IMG/VR virus record: IMGVR_UViG_2728369592_000010
Coordinates: 1-38,452 of that record
Reading direction: 5' to 3' (one strand)
Source: a virus
Taxonomy: Duplodnaviria; Heunggongvirae; Uroviricota; Caudoviricetes
DNA length: 38,452 nucleotides
This document shows, one piece after another, positions 5,491 through 32,778 of this stretch. Below the pieces are notes generated by a model. It ran no database searches. It saw only the letters and a program-made list of their open reading frames with translations, and was not told the origin of the DNA. Position 1 is the stretch's first letter, and each line of letters starts with the position of its first letter. The translations under genes were made by a program, and so were the position numbers.

Positions 5491-5507
5491 ATTACCTTTC
5501 AGGTAAT
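5491..5507. promoter_or_regulatory. Operator-like palindrome ATTACCTTTCAGGTAAT (TTACC-N5-GGTAA family)
   Basis: Perfect inverted repeat; identical core to the site at 22435-22449. Confidence 0.6.
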
Positions 5508-5543: not shown

Positions 5544-5563
5544 TACTGTATAAATATACAGTT
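5544..5563. promoter_or_regulatory. LexA (SOS) box TACTGTATAAATATACAGTT
   Basis: CTGT-N8-ACAG with AT-rich spacer, 18/20 match to the E. coli consensus TACTGTATATATATACAGTA; 5-20 bp upstream of the start of the plus-strand small gene. Confidence 0.75.
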
Positions 5564-5568
5564 ATTGC

Positions 5569-5841
5569 ATGGAGAAGATTAAGATGCAGCAGTATCACTA
5601 TCCACTGGAAGACGGATTTACCGAAAGGATTCACACGCCGGGAGGCGTCAGGTCACTGGTGGAGGGATCGCACTTGATGAAATTACTCCGGGATCTCGAT
5701 AAGGATGGATTTAATGTCGATGGCCCACTTGCCGAACTGACTGCACTGATTAACTACGTCACCAGCTCACAGATGTCTATGCAGGATCTGCAAACACATC
5801 TCGACTATTGTGCCGAACAATTACGAAAACAAACCCGGTAA
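5569..5841 (+). CDS. Small SOS-regulated protein, candidate antirepressor (likely start at ATG 5584 after GGAGAAG)
   Basis: Opposite strand to flanking virion genes, own LexA-box promoter and downstream hairpin; 85-90 aa soluble protein with no family I can assign. Confidence 0.6.
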   Translation: MEKIKMQQYHYPLEDGFTERIHTPGGVRSLVEGSHLMKLLRDLDKDGFNVDGPLAELTALINYVTSSQMSMQDLQTHLDYCAEQLRKQTR

Positions 5842-20154: not shown

Positions 20155-20447
20155 TCCTGTTCACTGGCCTCTTTGGCCATCTTCAAATACTGTTCAGGGC
20201 AATGCGCCATAACGCGCTGAAACAGTTCCAGCGCCAGATTGCGTTGCCCCTCATTAAATGCCATTGCCATAGCATCCATCGGAGAGATAGCGGAAAACAC
20301 CCGGCCTTTCTCCAGCACAGACCAGACAACGCGACGCCCATGTTCACTGCTCATGACAAAGCGAATGTCATCAATTTCACGCTGTGCCATGTCACGTTGC
20401 TTACGGGCGTTTTCTTCTTTCAGTTGATCGTCTTCGTAATCTGTCAT
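20151..20447 (-). CDS. Small head-assembly protein, unknown function
   Basis: 98-aa ORF overlapping portal stop and scaffold start. Confidence 0.6.
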   Translation of the reverse strand: MTDYEDDQLKEENARKQRDMAQREIDDIRFVMSSEHGRRVVWSVLEKGRVFSAISPMDAMAMAFNEGQRNLALELFQRVMAHCPEQYLKMAKEASEQE

Positions 20448-22123
20448 TGTGATTGCCCACCCTGACCACTAACTACATTCGCCATAGCTGACAAAACACT
20501 CGGATCCGAAGTTTTAGCTTCGCTTAGCGTTTTGGCACCCTGTGCCGCCGCCATCCCCATCGCCATCATTTGTTGCTGCTGTTGCTGCTGTGCCCGTTGC
20601 TGGCGAGCCTGCTCAACCTGTTCCTGCGGAACAATGACGGTTGGAGACACTCCGGACATATCAGCGAATGCATCGATCGCCTGATCAACGTTGAGTTTGT
20701 CGAGAGCTTCTGGTTTCGCTTGCGCAAGTTGACCAATGAAGTTAACCGTGGACGCCAGACTGGACAGGCCGATAGACTTCTGCGCCTGAGCCATGACGGA
20801 AATGTATTCGACCTTCAGGGGCATACCTTCCATCGCGTCAGGCGGTGGCGGCAGCATGTTTTTACGCACCATCATCGAGAAAGCGCGGTCAATGAGAGGG
20901 TTAAGACATTCGTCGTTCAGACGCTCCAGAACCGGCCCCAACATCAGAAGCTTTTCTTCTTTCATTTCGATCACTGCTTCAACAGGCATCGAGCGGGTAT
21001 TGATGTTCTGCAACATCATGAACAGATCGACAAAGTAGGCGCTGTTAATGATTTGGCGGGTGTCCTGAATGTCTGCTACCAGATCTGCTGTACTGGGGTT
21101 AACCAGATAAGCAGGCCTGAAACCATCCTGACCAGTAATCTGATCGATATACGTGATGTCGCCAGGAAGAAGAGAGGCGCGCTGATTCTTGAGGGAAGTC
21201 GGAGCAACCATCGGCGGATTGGTGGCTTTATCAATCAACTGCGACTTGCGCTGCTGGAGAAGCTGCAATGCCTTAACAGGTCCAAGCGCCAGCATACCCG
21301 GGCATGATGATCCATAAACATCTTCGCCGTTAACTTCCCAGCGCGGAGCCATAATTGGAAACTCATCGAATCCGGACTCACGCAACAACTTGTCGTTATC
21401 GCCGCCAACCTCGTAATAAACCGATTTGAATGGCTTGTTCTTGCTATCCAGCTTCGATGTATCGCGGTCAATGTTCGGGTAAACCGAATGCATAACTTCA
21501 ATCCACTTCTCGTAGGTGCCGCTTTCCCACATGCTTTTTACGGATTCGCTGACGTTATTTAGCCCGAACTCCTGAACAAGCTGACGAACAGTCATAGAGA
21601 ACTTGCGAAAACAGGTGTCCACACTGCCACGAGGTGAGTTAGCCAGGTAGTAACTGCCTATCGGGAATGGCATTGTGCGAATGATGTCCTCGTCATCCTC
21701 CAGCACCGCCATTGCACCAGTGCTGTATGTACCGAGGCTTCCGTATAACTGCGGCAGCGACTGGTAGAGATTCGACTTATTGAACATATCGTTCATACGG
21801 TTCTGCACCGCCTCAAGCCACAACTTAACAGGTCCATAATCCATCATTTCAGGATCTGGCGTAGCCAGGCGAAACCACGGACGCGCTGGGCTTGTGATGC
21901 CTGACATCATGCCGCTGGCGAGAGTGCGCGCCGCCATAGTCCCGGTCGAATCAATAATGCGTGTATTGCGTCGATCGTTACGGTTGACCTCAGAAGTCAG
22001 AAAGCGGGAACCACGCGGGTTGATGTAATCACTCAACTCGCGCCAGTGCGGCTCGAACGACTGACGCTCGCTTTCAAGTTGTGCGAACTGTTTGTTCAAT
22101 CGCTCTTTAGTTGTTTCCGCCAT
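20444..22123 (-). CDS. Portal protein
   Basis: 559-aa ORF in portal position between terminase and scaffold/capsid genes. Confidence 0.85.
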   Translation of the reverse strand: MAETTKERLNKQFAQLESERQSFEPHWRELSDYINPRGSRFLTSEVNRNDRRNTRIIDSTGTMAARTLASGMMSGITSPARPWFRLATPDPEMMDYGPVKLWLEAVQNRMNDMFNKSNLYQSLPQLYGSLGTYSTGAMAVLEDDEDIIRTMPFPIGSYYLANSPRGSVDTCFRKFSMTVRQLVQEFGLNNVSESVKSMWESGTYEKWIEVMHSVYPNIDRDTSKLDSKNKPFKSVYYEVGGDNDKLLRESGFDEFPIMAPRWEVNGEDVYGSSCPGMLALGPVKALQLLQQRKSQLIDKATNPPMVAPTSLKNQRASLLPGDITYIDQITGQDGFRPAYLVNPSTADLVADIQDTRQIINSAYFVDLFMMLQNINTRSMPVEAVIEMKEEKLLMLGPVLERLNDECLNPLIDRAFSMMVRKNMLPPPPDAMEGMPLKVEYISVMAQAQKSIGLSSLASTVNFIGQLAQAKPEALDKLNVDQAIDAFADMSGVSPTVIVPQEQVEQARQQRAQQQQQQQMMAMGMAAAQGAKTLSEAKTSDPSVLSAMANVVSGQGGQSQ

Positions 22124-22412: not shown

Positions 22413-22450
22413 TTGACATTTAACGCACGAATTATTACCTTTCAGGTAAC
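22413..22450 (+). promoter_or_regulatory. Candidate promoter (-35 TTGACA at 22413-22418) overlapped by operator-like palindrome ATTACCTTTCAGGTAAC (22434-22450)
   Basis: Consensus -35 hexamer on the plus strand about 350 nt upstream of the tRNA; operator covers the expected -10/+1 region. Confidence 0.45.
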
Positions 22451-22771: not shown

Positions 22772-22848
22772 GTGGCATTAGCTCAGTTGGACAGAGCAAC
22801 CGCCTTCTAAGCGGTTGGTCGCAGGTTCGAATCCTGCATGCCACGCCA
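22772..22848 (+). tRNA. tRNA-Arg (anticodon UCU, reads AGA), phage-encoded, with encoded CCA
   Basis: Manually folded cloverleaf: acceptor GTGGCAT/ATGCCAC, D-stem GCTC/GAGC, anticodon stem ACCGC/GCGGT with loop CTTCTAA (TCT at 22806-22808), T-arm GCAGG-TTCGAAT-CCTGC, discriminator G, CCA; similar to but distinct from host argU as I recall it. Confidence 0.85.
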
Positions 22849-22893
22849 GAATCACACCTGAGGACCGTGATGCCAGAAGTTCCAGGGGCTTGG

Positions 22894-22935
22894 CGGTGAT
22901 GGTTTCCCTTGAAGGACTACCACCGCCCTTTTTAC
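22894..22935 (+). terminator. Hairpin GGCGGTG...CACCGCC followed by CTTTTT (first terminator after tRNA)
   Basis: 7-bp GC-rich stem with a long structured loop and a T-run. Confidence 0.45.
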
Positions 22936-23011
22936 AGCAGGACGCCATTGCGATGACTTCATGCTGTAAACCAGTACAGCCACGGAAGGCGGAACTCATT
23001 GCTTCCAGTTC

Positions 23012-23036
23012 GCCCGGTTCGTCCGGGCATTTTTTT
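23012..23036 (+). terminator. Rho-independent terminator GCCCGG-ttcgt-CCGGGC-TTTTTTT
   Basis: Textbook GC stem plus T7 run, ending 6 nt before the downstream ORF. Confidence 0.75.
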
Positions 23037-23041
23037 GCCTG

Positions 23042-23920
23042 ATGACCACAAATTACCTTAAAGGTATAATCATGAAAAACTTTAAGGTAATTAGTATGTT
23101 CGAATCGTTCAAAGAGCTGTTTTTATCTACTGCCAATACTGCCGTGCATCGAGCTAAAAACCCTGTGCTTGGTGCTTTTGTTATGTCCTGGTGCGCCTTC
23201 AACTGGAAATCACTTCTTTATCTATTTTTTAGCAAATCAAATATAATAGATAAAATTTCATACATCTCAGATAACAGCACATGGAAAACTGTTATGTTTT
23301 ATCCATGCTTATCTGTAATTACTATCTGCTGCCTATTACCATGGGTAAACAATATCATTAACGTATGGCAAGCAAAGCCTCTTGATAATAATGACTCAAT
23401 CGAAAATCACCGGAAGGCAAGAAAAATACAACGTGAAACACGGCTACAGAGATTGCTGGCTAAAAAAGACATTACTTACGAAAAAGTAAAAACAGGCGCT
23501 GAAAAAAACATTCAAGACATGAAAGAGGAAATAATTCTTTCAAAAGACAGAATGGGACAACTCACATCTGAATTGAAAGAGAGGGAGACAGAACTGCGCG
23601 CAGAACAAGCTCGTATTTTAGAATTATCTAAGGTTATTGATGAAACAACATCTAAACTAGAAAATCTAGAAAAAGCTCACAAAAATTTAAAAAACGAATA
23701 TGAGTCCTATAAGAAAAACATTCCTTTGGCAACAAATAATACAATTGCTAATGGGCTTGTAGGTCTAAAATCATTACAAGACCTTAATGAGTCCGTAAAG
23801 AAACTTGGCGTTACTGGAATTAACAATCCAGAAATCAATACATTATTGAATAATCCTCTAGTAAATATAAATGGTGGTTTAAATTCCACCTATCAAAGAA
23901 AATTAAAAACACAAAAGTAA
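23042..23920 (+). CDS. AT-rich moron: membrane-anchored coiled-coil protein of unknown function (candidate exclusion/abortive-infection effector); probable start at ATG 23096
   Basis: Clearly AT-rich relative to flanks (by eye about 35% vs about 50% GC); opposite strand to terminase and portal; own -10 TATAAT at 23065-23070 overlapped by near-operator TTACCTTAAAGGTAT (23053-23067); two N-terminal TM helices then about 120-aa coiled coil; uses AGA/AGG Arg codons. Confidence 0.75.
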   Translation: MTTNYLKGIIMKNFKVISMFESFKELFLSTANTAVHRAKNPVLGAFVMSWCAFNWKSLLYLFFSKSNIIDKISYISDNSTWKTVMFYPCLSVITICCLLPWVNNIINVWQAKPLDNNDSIENHRKARKIQRETRLQRLLAKKDITYEKVKTGAEKNIQDMKEEIILSKDRMGQLTSELKERETELRAEQARILELSKVIDETTSKLENLEKAHKNLKNEYESYKKNIPLATNNTIANGLVGLKSLQDLNESVKKLGVTGINNPEINTLLNNPLVNINGGLNSTYQRKLKTQK

Positions 23921-23923
23921 AAA

Positions 23924-25393
23924 TCATTCAAATGGGTCATAGTCTGTTATAGCCCTGCCCTGCTGCTGCCGTGGGTCATTAGTTTTCTTGGCTACCGGGA
24001 AAGCAAACGTCAGCAGTAGCGCATCGCCTTTACCCGGCGAACGCCCAAGCCGCTCTTTGATATCTTCCTTCGGTTCGATAACGATTTTACCGTCCACACG
24101 AACTTTGTACTCTGCCGCCGACAGGTCATCCGCTGTTTCCTGGTCATCCAGCATCCCGCCGAGCCTCAGCCATGTCTTGCATGAGTTGAACATCTCCCCG
24201 CGCTTATTGAGCATCTGCGGGTCAGTAGACGCGCCGCCGAACGGAACAAGTTGCCATGTACGACCCCAGCCGTCACCGATTGACTTCAGACCGGTACCGT
24301 AACCGAAGTCGATGAACACCGCGTCAGCCTGATACTGGTCTTCAAAGTCAGCGATACGCTTTGCCATAATCAGATCGTCAGTGGTCTTGTTGCCGGTCCA
24401 CAGCACCTTACTGTGCAGCCCCTGCCGCAGGTATATCACCGCGTCATCAACGCCTGAGTATGCCGGGTCAACGCCGATTATCACCGGAGCATGTGCAACC
24501 TGCGCAGCGGTGACCACCCGTTTCATTGCCTCGTCAGTAAGTCCGGTAGGGATAAACTGCAATTCAGATGCATCCGGGAATATGCCGCGCACACGGATTT
24601 TAACGAAGTCGCTGTCTTCCCCGTAGTCATCAACCCATTTCTGCAACTGCTGTTTGTTAGTGCCTTCCACCGTCCGGCTGTCAATCTGCGCAGTTTTCCA
24701 GCGGTGTTTATATTTGCGGAAACATTCGCGGAAACGCCCGGTGTTACGTGTAGGGTTTCCGAACGCCACCCAGATAATCTCAGTGTCTTCGTCCGTTAGC
24801 GCCCCCTCAGCAACTTCCCACACCAGATCCGCAATGTTCGACGCTTCATCGAATACCACGATGATGCGTTTGCGCTCGTTGTGTAGTCCGGCGAATGCCT
24901 CAGTGTTGTGCTCAGACCAGGGGATTGCGTCAGCTCGCCACCGCTTGTCGTGCCCAGGATCATTGCTGTACATCGCGGTAGCGGTACAGGTAAACCAGTC
25001 TTTCGTGATAGCAAGGTTCGACCACTTGATAATTTCCGGCCAGGTCTTCGTTCGTAGCTGGTTGTCGGTGTTGGCGGTCACCACGACCTTACAATCCTCG
25101 CAAGTGGACATGCCCCAGTTGATCAGCATTGAGATGAATGCGGATTTACCAATACCGTGACCAGAAGCGCGTGCCAGCATAAGCGGCTGATAGCGCGTCT
25201 CTGGATTCTGCAGGTGATCACGTATCTCTCGGAACGCATCAGCCTGCCACTGACGTGGGCCGGTAGCATGTGCCAGTTCAGTCCCCTCTTCCCCCCACGG
25301 GAACGCATAGAGGGCATAGCCAAGCGGATCGTGAGTGAACCCTGCAATATCCTCGATCAACTGCTCTTCAGGAGATAACGCTGTATCTGTCAC
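23924..25393 (-). CDS. Terminase large subunit
   Basis: 489 aa; N-terminal ATPase features and C-terminal nuclease region; ATGA overlap with small-subunit stop. Confidence 0.9.
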   Translation of the reverse strand: MTDTALSPEEQLIEDIAGFTHDPLGYALYAFPWGEEGTELAHATGPRQWQADAFREIRDHLQNPETRYQPLMLARASGHGIGKSAFISMLINWGMSTCEDCKVVVTANTDNQLRTKTWPEIIKWSNLAITKDWFTCTATAMYSNDPGHDKRWRADAIPWSEHNTEAFAGLHNERKRIIVVFDEASNIADLVWEVAEGALTDEDTEIIWVAFGNPTRNTGRFRECFRKYKHRWKTAQIDSRTVEGTNKQQLQKWVDDYGEDSDFVKIRVRGIFPDASELQFIPTGLTDEAMKRVVTAAQVAHAPVIIGVDPAYSGVDDAVIYLRQGLHSKVLWTGNKTTDDLIMAKRIADFEDQYQADAVFIDFGYGTGLKSIGDGWGRTWQLVPFGGASTDPQMLNKRGEMFNSCKTWLRLGGMLDDQETADDLSAAEYKVRVDGKIVIEPKEDIKERLGRSPGKGDALLLTFAFPVAKKTNDPRQQQGRAITDYDPFE

Positions 25394-25986
25394 TGATTAC
25401 CATCCTGACGTTCTTTGAGTCGCTTCCTGGCTGCTGCTATGCGATCAGCAATTGTCACATTCACATTAACATCCAGACGTTCTTTGAACGCGTTGACATC
25501 AACATGCTTACCAATCAGCTCAAGGTTCTTCACCTTGTCAGGCCATTTAATTTTTTTGAGGATTGTCTCTATCGAATCCTCGTTCATGTTCATGATGGTC
25601 GATGACAGATCAAAGCCACTAAGCGTAGTGCGCCAGATTTTCGGCCACTCACGGATTGGTTTAAGGCTCCCATCGTCGTTGAGGATGTCGATCACGTCCA
25701 TCTGGTCGATCTCCACCAGGCGCATGAGAACGTAATCAGCACTGACGCGCATTCGTTTGTTGCGCTCCTCCATCAACTCGGCAATCCGTTTTTGAATGCG
25801 TTCATCGCGCATCATGACACTGGCTTTAACTGCCGCTGTATTTGGGGAGAATCCTGCGTTAATCGCTGCCTGAGTCTGGTTTTCAGGCGTTTTGATGTAT
25901 GACTGGCAATAAGCCTCCTGCATTGCTGTTAGTGGCTTAAATTGCGTTGATTTGCGTTTATAGGTTTTAGGTTCAGCAGGCATCAT
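25390..25986 (-). CDS. Terminase small subunit (start set at MMPAEP; ORF-track start at 26064 adds a low-complexity extension without SD)
   Basis: Motif AAINAGFSPNTAAVKASVMMRDERIQKRIAE is typical of small terminase DNA-binding domains; GGTGG before the internal ATGs. Confidence 0.75.
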   Translation of the reverse strand: MMPAEPKTYKRKSTQFKPLTAMQEAYCQSYIKTPENQTQAAINAGFSPNTAAVKASVMMRDERIQKRIAELMEERNKRMRVSADYVLMRLVEIDQMDVIDILNDDGSLKPIREWPKIWRTTLSGFDLSSTIMNMNEDSIETILKKIKWPDKVKNLELIGKHVDVNAFKERLDVNVNVTIADRIAAARKRLKERQDGNQ

Positions 25987-25993
25987 AACCACC

Positions 25994-26025
25994 GTGGTAA
26001 TAGTTACCGTTGTGGTAATAGTACC
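25994..26025. repeat. Two direct copies of an everted GGTAA/TTACC element (GTGGTAATAGTTACC and GTGGTAATAGTACC) upstream of the terminase small subunit
   Basis: Read directly; half-sites are the same as the operator family but in everted arrangement with 3-bp spacer. Confidence 0.4.
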
Positions 26026-26096
26026 ATGCAAAATAAAGCCGCCATAGTTGGCGGCAGTATTCAAAACCCATCAAATTCATCATGCATAATCTACTC

Positions 26097-31941: not shown

Positions 31942-32004
31942 TCACCCATAAGGTAACAAAAATCAAGGATAGTTACCTATGGGGTGCATTTACCTGTTGG
32001 GTAA
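31942..32004. promoter_or_regulatory. Tripartite operator cluster between Cro-like and repressor genes: TCACCCATAAGGTAA (31942-31956), TTACCTATGGGGTGC (31973-31987), TTACCTGTTGGGTAA (31990-32004)
   Basis: Three TTACC-N5-GGTAA-family sites in the 154-bp divergent intergenic region. Confidence 0.6.
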
Positions 32005-32059: not shown

Positions 32060-32644
32060 ATGAAAAGTATCCAGGACGTCCGCAGGCAAAATCTCAACGA
32101 CTTGATCGACCGTGAATTCAATGGTGTTCAGACGCGGATGGCAGAAAAACTTGGAACTCAGGCAAATCTGGTAAACCGCTGGGCTCTTGGCAAGAAGGTT
32201 ATCGGCGACCAGGTTGCGCGAAAAATTGAAGCTGCCGCCAATAAACCCCGTAACTGGCTTGATATCGATCGCTCGCTTTCTCAGGAAGGTTTTCAGCCTG
32301 TCGGCCCAAGCGACATTGGTCAGCTAGCGGCTCACAACCTGGAACGCTGGATGAGCGAAAGCCGCGACCTTTCAACACAGGGAAAACTTCACCGCGCATC
32401 CGGCGTCGCCCAGGTGACAATCAGCCGCCTGTTAAACAATGAGGTCAGCGTTTCCATTTCCACCCTGGAGAATGTTGCATCCGCATTCGGGCGTCACGGA
32501 TATGAACTACTGATTCACCCGCACGACCCTGCGACTATCAACTATGACCGCTCACGCTACGCATTGTTACCCGAAACCGAGAAAGCAAAGATCGAAAGTT
32601 ACATTGAATTTGTCATCAACCAGAACGAAAAAAGCAAACAATAA
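32060..32644 (+). CDS. Immunity repressor candidate with two tandem XRE-type HTH domains and no recognisable S24 autocleavage domain
   Basis: HTH-like segments at about residues 20-65 and 110-150; no Ala-Gly cleavage site or Ser/Lys peptidase motifs seen; divergent from the Cro-like gene. Confidence 0.7.
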   Translation: MKSIQDVRRQNLNDLIDREFNGVQTRMAEKLGTQANLVNRWALGKKVIGDQVARKIEAAANKPRNWLDIDRSLSQEGFQPVGPSDIGQLAAHNLERWMSESRDLSTQGKLHRASGVAQVTISRLLNNEVSVSISTLENVASAFGRHGYELLIHPHDPATINYDRSRYALLPETEKAKIESYIEFVINQNEKSKQ

Positions 32645-32701: not shown

Positions 32702-32778
32702 TTACCTTACGGGTAATTTTTTTAACTCATATCTATTGACACCAAACCAAATAAGCATAATTATTACCCCAACGGTAA
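32702..32778 (+). promoter_or_regulatory. Early-left promoter-operator cassette: operator TTACCTTACGGGTAA (32702-32716), -35 TTGACA (32736-32741), 17-bp spacer, -10 AATTAT, operator TTACCCCAACGGTAA (32764-32778)
   Basis: Read directly; geometry mirrors the minus-strand cassette at 29597-29673. Confidence 0.6.

What the first reader, a model, noticed from the sequence alone, without database searches (positions are those of the whole stretch)
23042..23920. AT-rich gene for a membrane-anchored coiled-coil protein: candidate exclusion or abortive-infection effector
Composition is visibly lower in GC than the flanks. The product has two N-terminal TM helices, a long cytoplasmic coiled coil and an Asn/Leu-rich tail, with no family I recognise. 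Single-gene membrane/coiled-coil proteins in prophage morons often act in superinfection exclusion or abortive infection. The gene would be antisense to terminase mRNA during lytic growth.
Basis: inference. Interest (0 to 1): 0.8.

Follow-up and report, generated by a model that had tools for sequence, protein, structure and literature searches.

The report
Membrane coiled-coil gene in anti-defence slot
A real, AT-rich prophage gene for a membrane-anchored coiled-coil protein of a large unstudied phage family occupies a slot that in sister phages holds known inhibitors of bacterial immunity, and its promoter carries the phage repressor's binding site, so it is more likely an early counter-defence factor than a protector of the lysogen.

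Summary
The ORF is real, has 33% GC against flanks of 52-55%, and encodes an N-terminal membrane hairpin, a helix of about 105 residues and an Asn/Leu-rich tail. No Pfam, NCBIfam, PADLOC or PDB relative was found.

- **Start codon:** the true start is ATG 23096 (274 aa).
- **Host element:** the window is a phiV10/epsilon15-like (Uetakevirus) prophage of E. coli PCN033.
- **Family:** the N-terminal 160 residues define a large unannotated phage family (PHROG 4780; 2477 cluster representatives). The C-terminal part is swapped as modules (48 types in 157 proteins).
- **Regulation:** the promoter is overlapped by TTACC-N5-GGTAT, the motif that flanks the prophage repressor gene. I infer the gene is silent in the lysogen and switched on at infection or induction.
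- **Slot:** in 94 related phage contigs, 50 slots hold immune-signal sponges (Acb4, Tad2, Acb2/Tad1, Sequestin) and 24 hold this family.

Best reading, at 0.4: an early membrane-anchored counter-defence or conflict factor. Function is untested.

The parts
23096..23920 (+).
   Evidence: every homologue starts at this Met; the upstream ATGs 23042 and 23072 are not conserved. SD AAGG at 23084-23087.
23042..23070 (+). Sigma-70 promoter of the gene: -35 ATGACC (23042-23047), 17-bp spacer, -10 TATAAT (23065-23070)
   Evidence: 10 of 12 consensus matches. -35 TGAC and -10 TAnAAT are conserved upstream of the ATG in 71 IMG/VR loci and in the Klebsiella and Cronobacter loci.
23053..23067 (.). Operator-like palindrome TTACC-TTAAA-GGTAT overlapping the spacer and -10
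   Evidence: TTACC-N5-GGTAA has 8 perfect sites in the window against 0.03 expected. This site has 1 mismatch here and is perfect in other alleles.
23012..23036 (+). Upstream intrinsic terminator (GC hairpin plus T7). Its end is the left boundary of the variable slot.
   Evidence: Similarity to phiV10 ends at 23036. The stem covaries among phages.
23165..23233 (+). Hydrophobic segment 1 (residues 24-46, with the invariant FNW motif); a marginal TM or re-entrant helix
   Evidence: KD maximum 1.19 here, 1.53 family mean. AF2 puts a helix break at N36. N36, W37, G26, F28 and W32 are invariant or nearly invariant.
23288..23362 (+). Hydrophobic segment 2 (residues 65-89); a strong TM helix
   Evidence: KD maximum 2.0 here, 1.95 family mean.
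23363..23575 (+). Highly conserved juxtamembrane region and proximal coiled coil (residues 90-160)
   Evidence: many invariant residues (KPLDNNDSIEN..RKA...TRLQRL.AK.D.TY..V.TG.E..IQ.M.E).
23576..23917 (+). Hypervariable C-terminal module: distal coiled coil (to residue 208) plus the Asn/Leu-rich tail (residues 209-274)
   Evidence: 48 C-terminal clusters against 1 main N-terminal cluster; 209 pairs have N-terminal identity above 90% and C-terminal below 30%..
22772..22848 (+). tRNA-Arg(UCU), the first element of the same + strand island
22413..22449 (+). Promoter (TTGACA 22413-22418) and perfect operator (22435-22449) upstream of the tRNA / sRNA-like element / slot
32060..32644 (+). Prophage repressor gene (HTH_3), flanked by the operator motif at 31942-32004 (OR-like) and 32702-32778 (OL-like)
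   Evidence: Experimental support for the near-identical ZX5 repressor: PMC9782041.
23924..25393 (-). Terminase large subunit, convergent with the gene; the right boundary of the slot

Best explanation
The gene is a cargo gene of an early-expressed accessory island (tRNA-Arg, sRNA-like element, variable slot) of a Uetakevirus prophage.

Shown:
- It has its own near-consensus sigma-70 promoter.
- The spacer and -10 of that promoter are covered by the prophage repressor's operator motif.
- The product has an N-terminal helical membrane hairpin, a long single helix with heptad periodicity, and a C-terminal module that is exchanged among alleles.
- In sister phages the same slot holds Acb4, Tad2, Acb2/Tad1 or Sequestin immune-signal sponges.

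Inferred:
- In the lysogen the repressor keeps the gene off.
- On infection or induction the protein is made at once and inserts into the inner membrane with both ends probably in the cytoplasm.
- It oligomerises through the coiled coil.
- Its variable distal module binds a host or rival-element protein, so protecting the phage's lytic programme. The most likely route is neutralising a membrane-associated immune effector or abortive-infection system. That would make it a membrane-anchored counter-defence factor rather than a soluble sponge.
For: Promoter and operator:
- The promoter and operator are present in the window.
- They are conserved in 71 viral loci.
- They also precede a subfamily only about 27% identical that sits in the same slot.
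- The operator motif flanks the repressor gene in the window and in a Cronobacter relative, and is absent from the immunity region of a prophage with a different repressor.
- The repressor is 99.5% identical to that of ZX5, whose overexpression cut lysin and holin transcripts by more than 99.9%.

Slot census of 94 contigs:
- 37 Acb4 only
- 9 Tad2
- 1 Acb2/Tad1
- 1 Sequestin
- 22 this family only
- 2 Acb4 plus this family
- None of the unknown cargo hits a PADLOC defence model.

The anti-defence roles of the sponge families are published.

Architecture. Modular C-terminus.

Family members also lie in the accessory regions of filamentous, non-lytic phages. This argues against a lysis or packaging role.
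Against: - There is no functional data of any kind.
- Repression by the repressor is inferred from sequence only. This allele's operator has one mismatch and one allele group has two, so some lysogenic expression is possible.
- Unlike the sponge genes, this gene brings its own promoter.
- It is large and membrane-bound, which no known anti-defence protein is, to my knowledge.
- A conserved membrane 'effector-like' N-terminus with a variable 'sensor-like' C-terminus is also the design of single-protein abortive-infection systems.
- In a lambdoid prophage a family member lies two genes from a NACHT protein, a defence-type gene.
- Hot spots can mix defence and anti-defence cargo.
Confidence: 0.4

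Rival explanations
1. Superinfection-exclusion or abortive-infection effector. The membrane hairpin is the effector and the variable C-terminus senses or blocks a rival phage. Expression would be either leaky in the lysogen or during the resident phage's own lytic cycle.
For: - Conserved membrane N-terminus with 48 swapped C-terminal types.
- Stand-alone gene on the opposite strand in three different prophage backbones and in inovirus accessory regions.
- Lies near a NACHT gene in L087.
- The operator has 1-2 mismatches in some alleles and is an orphan in Klebsiella prophages, where the promoter would be constitutive.
Against: - The operator over the -10 predicts silence in the Uetakevirus lysogen.
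- No match to SieB, Imm or any of 5027 PADLOC models, for this protein or for 43 distant relatives.
- Every identified alternative cargo of the slot is an anti-defence sponge, and none is a defence gene.
Confidence: 0.25
2. Early host-takeover or decision factor acting at the membrane, for example a block of cell division or envelope remodelling, or modulation of a membrane protease that influences lysis versus lysogeny.
For: - Predicted early, repressor-controlled expression.
- Membrane anchor with an invariant juxtamembrane segment, suggesting a conserved host partner.
Against: - Most phages of the genus lack the gene, and the slot is interchangeable with sponges.
- A conserved host target does not explain the modular, hypervariable C-terminus.
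- No similarity to Kil, DicB, CIII or related families.
Confidence: 0.15
3. Membrane organiser of phage DNA replication or packaging (as in phi29 p16.7), or a spanin-like lysis component.
For: Membrane anchor plus coiled coil plus a distal head; position next to terL.
Against: - Dispensable: absent from phiV10 and from about three quarters of the slots.
- Also present in non-lytic inoviruses.
- Not in the lysis cassette and has no o-spanin partner.
- No structural or assembly homology.
Confidence: 0.07

Closest known systems
Phage immune-signal sponges Acb4 (PF13876), Tad2 (PF11195), Acb2/Tad1 (PF24729) and Sequestin (PF21825)
   Same: They occupy the identical slot, on the same strand, in sister Uetakevirus phages. 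They are single accessory genes. Two contigs carry Acb4 together with this family.
   Different: The sponges are small soluble proteins that start right after the upstream terminator without a promoter of their own. This protein is 274 aa, membrane-anchored and coiled-coil, has its own promoter and operator, and matches none of these Pfam models.
T4 RIIA/RIIB (own knowledge: early, membrane-associated proteins that let T4 escape RexAB exclusion)
   Same: The proposed logic is the same: an early-expressed, membrane-located protector against membrane-acting abortive infection.
   Different: No sequence or fold relation was detected. RII proteins are much larger and are not hairpin-plus-coiled-coil. 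The comparison rests on analogy only.
Membrane exclusion/Abi proteins of temperate phages: P22/lambda SieB, lambda RexB, T4 Imm and Sp, HK97 gp15 (own knowledge)
   Same: Small phage-borne inner-membrane accessory proteins involved in phage-phage conflict.
   Different: No Pfam match to these families. Those acting in lysogens are expressed from the prophage, whereas this promoter carries a repressor operator. None has a coiled coil of about 105 residues with a swappable tip.
2TM effectors of CBASS, Pycsar and retron systems
   Same: An N-terminal two-helix membrane module joined to a cytoplasmic part.
   Different: Those effectors work with a partner cyclase or sensor gene and carry a signal-binding domain. 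This gene stands alone, and there are no PADLOC hits beyond coiled-coil noise.
phi29 p16.7 (own knowledge: TM anchor, coiled coil and C-terminal DNA-binding dimer, expressed early)
   Same: The order of parts (membrane anchor, coiled coil, distal head) and early expression.
   Different: No homology. This gene is dispensable and variable. A winged-helix-like head that I thought I saw in distant members was not supported.

Membership tests
PHROG 4780 (unknown function) / wider N-terminal-domain family | Significant full-length profile match | tested here: met
   phrog_4780 E = 2.7e-121 over residues 19-292; phrog_13369 and phrog_35327 match more weakly. An N-terminal profile finds 2477 cluster representatives at E <= 1e-3.
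Prophage moron (lysogenic-conversion gene) | Own promoter and foreign base composition | tested here: met
   Promoter with 10 of 12 consensus matches, conserved across alleles. GC 0.33 against about 0.52 in the flanks.
Prophage moron (lysogenic-conversion gene) | Expression in the lysogen independent of the phage repressor | tested here: not met
   From sequence only: the repressor operator motif overlaps the spacer and -10. No transcript data were available, so this result is provisional.
Known anti-phage defence proteins (PADLOC v2), including Abi and membrane effectors | Profile match to a defence family | tested here: not met
   Only coiled-coil noise to LmuB, JetC and DruC, for this protein and 43 relatives.
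SieB / Imm / other Pfam exclusion families | Pfam domain match | tested here: not met
   No such hit at E <= 1 for this protein, or at E <= 0.01 for 44 family members.
Immune-signal sponges (Acb4, Tad2, Acb2/Tad1, Sequestin) | Pfam domain PF13876, PF11195, PF24729 or PF21825 | tested here: not met
   No match. It shares their genomic slot only.
Anti-defence protein (functional class) | Restores phage growth on a host carrying a defence system | not testable with these tools
   Needs co-expression or phage knock-in assays.
i-spanin (Rz-type) | Located in the lysis cassette with an o-spanin partner; single N-terminal TM; periplasmic coiled coil | tested here: not met
   It lies between portal and terL on the opposite strand with no partner gene. 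It has two hydrophobic segments, and charge bias favours a cytoplasmic C-terminus.
Any solved or predicted fold family | Significant structural match | tested here: not met
   - BFVD and PDB Foldseek: nothing at E <= 0.001.
- PDB sequence profile: nothing.
- afdb50 was unavailable.

The most novel reading that the evidence does not exclude
This is the founding example of a membrane-anchored class of phage counter-defence proteins. It would be an early protein whose conserved hairpin sits in the inner membrane and whose exchangeable coiled-coil tip captures or blocks membrane-acting immune effectors. Candidate targets are the TM effectors of CBASS, Pycsar or Thoeris, or Rex-like abortive-infection systems. 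It would do at the effector level what the sponges in the same slot do at the signal level.
Probability: 0.2. Interest if true: 0.85.

Novelty: new variant of a known kind. Interest (0 to 1): 0.6.

Why it matters
- **A new route of immune evasion.** All known inhibitors of signalling immunity are small soluble sponges or enzymes. A membrane-anchored, modular inhibitor would be a different route.
- **A ready test set.** The family is large: 2477 clusters at 50% identity, found in tailed temperate phages and in filamentous phages. Its natural allelic series of 48 or more C-terminal modules is a ready-made specificity experiment.
- **Reusable results whatever the function.** Three things found here can be reused:
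  - a defined anti-defence hot spot in Uetakevirus phages, between the tRNA-Arg/sRNA-like element and terL, with several further unknown cargo genes;
  - the repressor operator motif TTACC-N5-GGTAA and its map across the prophage;
  - a corrected gene start.
- **If it is an exclusion gene instead.** It would then be a defence gene under repressor control inside an anti-defence slot, which would also be unusual.

Tried and rejected
- **Fold and remote-homology routes.**
  - A PDB sequence-profile search gave noise.
  - afdb50 was not installed.
- **LF82 'Gally' transcriptome.** I first took Gally for an epsilon15-like prophage. Its gene table shows it is P22-like, so the data are irrelevant.
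- **Winged-helix head.** By eye, several distant family members seemed to end in a winged-helix-like segment (L..LGLI.K...F.IT.KGL.F). Pfam gave no support, so I dropped the idea.
- **Neighbours in other backbones.** Genes next to family members in non-Uetakevirus contexts were scanned for sponge or defence domains and gave nothing. The PHROG scan of other neighbours showed only ordinary phage genes.
- **RyhB match.** The Rfam hit to the upstream element is far below threshold (20.5 bits against 55). I kept it only as a side note.
- **Literature.** Searches for the protein accession, for phiV10 exclusion, and for membrane/coiled-coil anti-defence proteins found nothing on this family.

Full report
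**1. What is there**

The ORF 23042..23920 (+) exists. It is sharply AT-rich: GC 0.33 and GC3 0.30, against GC 0.52-0.55 and GC3 about 0.6 for the flanking portal and terminase genes.

The window is 100% identical to the E. coli PCN033 chromosome. It holds a phiV10/epsilon15-like (Uetakevirus) prophage, and the flanks of the gene are about 99% identical to phiV10.

The gene lies on the opposite strand to the late genes. To its left are portal (20444..22123, -), a small conserved ORF and tRNA-Arg(UCU) at 22772..22848 (+). To its right is terL (23924..25393, -).

**2. Gene model**

The two upstream ATGs are replaced by other codons in E. coli and Klebsiella relatives.

- -35 ATGACC at 23042-23047
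- a 17-bp spacer
- -10 TATAAT at 23065-23070, giving 10 of 12 consensus matches
- a Shine-Dalgarno AAGG at 23084-23087

The coding sequence is therefore 23096..23920, 274 aa. RefSeq annotates Met11.

**3. The protein**

All residue numbers below count from Met19.

- Residues 65-89 form a strong hydrophobic helix (KD 2.0).
- Residues 24-46 are marginal (KD 1.19 here; 1.53 as the mean of 131 family members). They carry an invariant Asn-Trp in the middle, where AlphaFold2 breaks the helix.
- Family-wide net charge is +1.1 before segment 1, -0.8 in the loop and +1.3 after segment 2. This weakly favours an N-in/C-in hairpin with a cytoplasmic coiled coil, but it is not proof.
- Residues 102-208 are one long helix, with pLDDT above 90 over about 140-200, and show heptad periodicity.
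- The last 66 residues are low-confidence and are 18% Asn and 17% Leu.

**4. Homology**

Pfam, NCBIfam and PADLOC give only coiled-coil noise. The same is true for 43 distant relatives.

The protein does belong to PHROG 4780, of unknown function, at E = 2.7e-121. A profile of the N-terminal 160 residues finds 2477 cluster representatives at E <= 1e-3 and 358 at E <= 1e-10 among 1.84 billion proteins.

The family signature is ER.KNP..G.F..SW..FNW, followed by a TM helix and an LP motif, then a coiled coil and a variable end.

**5. Modular evolution**

Among 157 distinct proteins of the close subfamily, the first 160 residues form essentially one cluster at 50% identity or more. Residues 161 to the end fall into 48 clusters. 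In 209 pairs the N-terminal part is above 90% identical while the C-terminal part is below 30%.

So the C-terminal part is exchanged as a module. This is the pattern expected of a specificity determinant.

**6. Where the family lives**

- Close relatives (for example the 246-aa P0109) and a subfamily only about 27% identical (P0278 in E. coli, P0303 in Cronobacter) occupy this same slot of Uetakevirus prophages.
- Other members sit on the opposite strand to their neighbours in a different Klebsiella podovirus prophage, between replication and nin-type genes.
- One sits in the nin region of a lambdoid prophage, two genes from a NACHT protein.
- Others lie at strand-switch points of low-GC phage contigs.
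- Others lie in the accessory regions of filamentous Vibrio phages.

The family is rare in sequenced phage isolates, at 7 of 50,697 records. Close alleles are present in 62 of 5426 complete E. coli genomes, while the conserved slot flank is present in 517.

Presence in non-lytic inoviruses argues against a lysis, packaging or virion role.

**7. Regulation**

The promoter spacer and -10 are covered by TTACC-TTAAA-GGTAT (23053-23067). The motif TTACC-N5-GGTAA has 8 perfect copies in the window against 0.03 expected, and 11 copies with one mismatch or fewer against 1.15 expected.

The copies are located as follows:
- Between the divergent cro-like gene and the HTH_3 repressor gene (31942 and 31990).
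- Just downstream of the repressor gene, beside a TTGACA promoter (32702 and 32764).
- As a pair flanking a promoter upstream of the DUF1064 gene (29597 and 29659).
- Over the -10 of the promoter upstream of tRNA-Arg (22435).
- Upstream of terS (25986 and 26004).
- Upstream of a LexA-box gene (5492).

The sites recur at the same places in other phages with variable central bases. They flank the repressor gene in a Cronobacter relative. They are absent from the immunity region of the Klebsiella prophage, which has a different repressor.

The window's repressor is 99.5% identical to that of phiV10/ZX5. Overexpressing the ZX5 repressor reduced lysin and holin transcripts by more than 99.9% (PMC9782041).

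My inference is that the motif is the repressor (and probably Cro) operator, and that the gene is repressed in the lysogen and derepressed at infection or induction. This has not been shown. The caveats are that this allele has one mismatch, forced by the TATAAT, that other alleles are perfect and one group has two mismatches, and that no transcript data exist.

**8. The slot is an anti-defence hot spot**

I used the conserved upstream element as an anchor and recovered 94 IMG/VR contigs with terL downstream. All cargo ORFs are on the + strand.

| Slot content | Contigs |
|---|---|
| PF13876 protein only (phiV10p03 type) | 37 |
| This family only | 22 |
| PF13876 plus this family | 2 |
| Tad2-like (PF11195) | 9 |
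| Acb2/Tad1 hairpin (PF24729) | 1 |
| PF21825 | 1 |
| Three unknown small proteins | 15 |
| None of these | 7 |

PF13876 is the Acb4 anti-CBASS sponge family (bioRxiv 10.1101/2024.12.30.630793). PF21825 is Sequestin, a 3'cADPR sponge, and PF11195 is Tad2 (bioRxiv 10.1101/2025.07.12.664507).

So 50 of 94 slots carry a known immune-signal sponge, and none of the unknown cargo matches a defence model. Most sponge genes start 10-15 nt after the upstream terminator with only a ribosome-binding site. The membrane/coiled-coil family brings its own promoter and operator.

**9. Interpretation**

Its 'lysogen-expressed moron' premise is contradicted by the operator. Its functional guess is one of two live options.

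Two lines of evidence point to a counter-defence factor: predicted early, repressor-controlled expression, and interchangeability with anti-defence sponges. I put that reading at 0.4.

Several points keep exclusion or abortive infection alive at 0.25:
- the membrane-effector-like conserved N-terminus with a variable C-terminus;
- the NACHT neighbour;
- the gene's own promoter;
- the orphan operator in other backbones.

Host takeover (0.15) and organiser or spanin roles (0.07) fit less well. Every mechanistic step beyond gene structure, predicted topology, promoter/operator anatomy, modularity and slot content is inference.

**10. Novelty**

The family is undescribed and has no detectable relative of known function. 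The kind of thing it is, a single accessory conflict gene in a phage hot spot, is familiar.

A membrane-anchored counter-defence protein would be new. I give that 0.2.

Noticed in passing
window 22925-23036 (+), between tRNA-Arg and the gene's promoter: A conserved sRNA-like element ends in the terminator at 23012-23036. The block CACCGCCCTTTTTACAGCAGGACGCCATTGCGATGACTTCATGCTGTAAACC is near-invariant across E. coli, Cronobacter and Klebsiella phages. The terminator stem covaries. In E. coli and Cronobacter alleles the 13 nt just before the terminator, CATTGCTTCCAGT, equal (from memory) the RyhB core; other alleles carry a different sequence there. The Rfam RyhB match is far below threshold (20.5 bits against 55, E = 0.93). 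The element travels with the gene into a Klebsiella prophage that lacks the tRNA.
   Followed up: partly
window 5492, 22435, 23053, 25986, 26004, 29597, 29659, 31942, 31990, 32702, 32764: The operator motif TTACC-N5-GGTAA has 8 perfect copies against 0.03 expected. It lies at OR-like and OL-like positions around the repressor gene and at five other regulatory regions. It is conserved in position, with variable central bases, in related phages. This is a candidate full repressor regulon map for phiV10-type phages.
   Followed up: yes
window 5544-5562 and ORF 5569/5584..5841 (+): A perfect LexA/SOS box (TACTGTATAAATATACAGT) sits directly upstream of a small + strand ORF (90 aa, no Pfam match) between the tailspike gene and the next late gene, with an operator copy at 5492. 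The repressor has no peptidase domain. This looks like an SOS-controlled antirepressor module, by the same logic as Tum or the Gifsy antirepressors. ZX5 has an experimentally supported antirepressor of a different type.
   Followed up: partly
window 22849-23924 and the equivalent slot in 94 IMG/VR contigs (loci L101-L220): The Uetakevirus slot between the sRNA-like element and terL is a hot spot for immune-signal sponges (Acb4 39, Tad2 9, Acb2/Tad1 1, Sequestin 1). It also holds at least five small cargo families with no annotation: 140-aa (8 contigs), 110-aa (4), 143-aa (3), 115-aa (2) and 60-aa (2), plus a single 99-aa ORF. These are candidate new anti-defence genes. phiV10p03 itself is an Acb4-family protein.
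   Followed up: partly
window 25980-26064 (-), start of the terS ORF: The listed terS ORF (TTG start at 26064) probably starts later, at MMPAEPK. Read on the - strand, the region upstream of that start contains a terminator-like hairpin (GCCGCCAACTATGGCGGC followed by TTTATTTT) and then two operator copies just before it. This suggests a regulated entry into the late/packaging operon.
   Followed up: no
locus L087 10228..12144 (+), lambdoid prophage from a JGI metagenome: A 638-aa NACHT-domain protein (a bacterial NLR-like defence type) and a DinI homologue lie next to a family member in the nin region of a lambdoid prophage. There the family gene is preceded by an overlapping 58-aa ORF.
   Followed up: no
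locus L008/L009 (Klebsiella prophage), -44 relative to the gene start: The operator-like palindrome (TTACCTCAAAGGTAT) is retained upstream of the Klebsiella homologue, although that prophage has a different repressor and no other copy of the motif. It may be a relic of transfer from a Uetakevirus, or the bases may be kept for promoter function. This is unexplained.
   Followed up: partly
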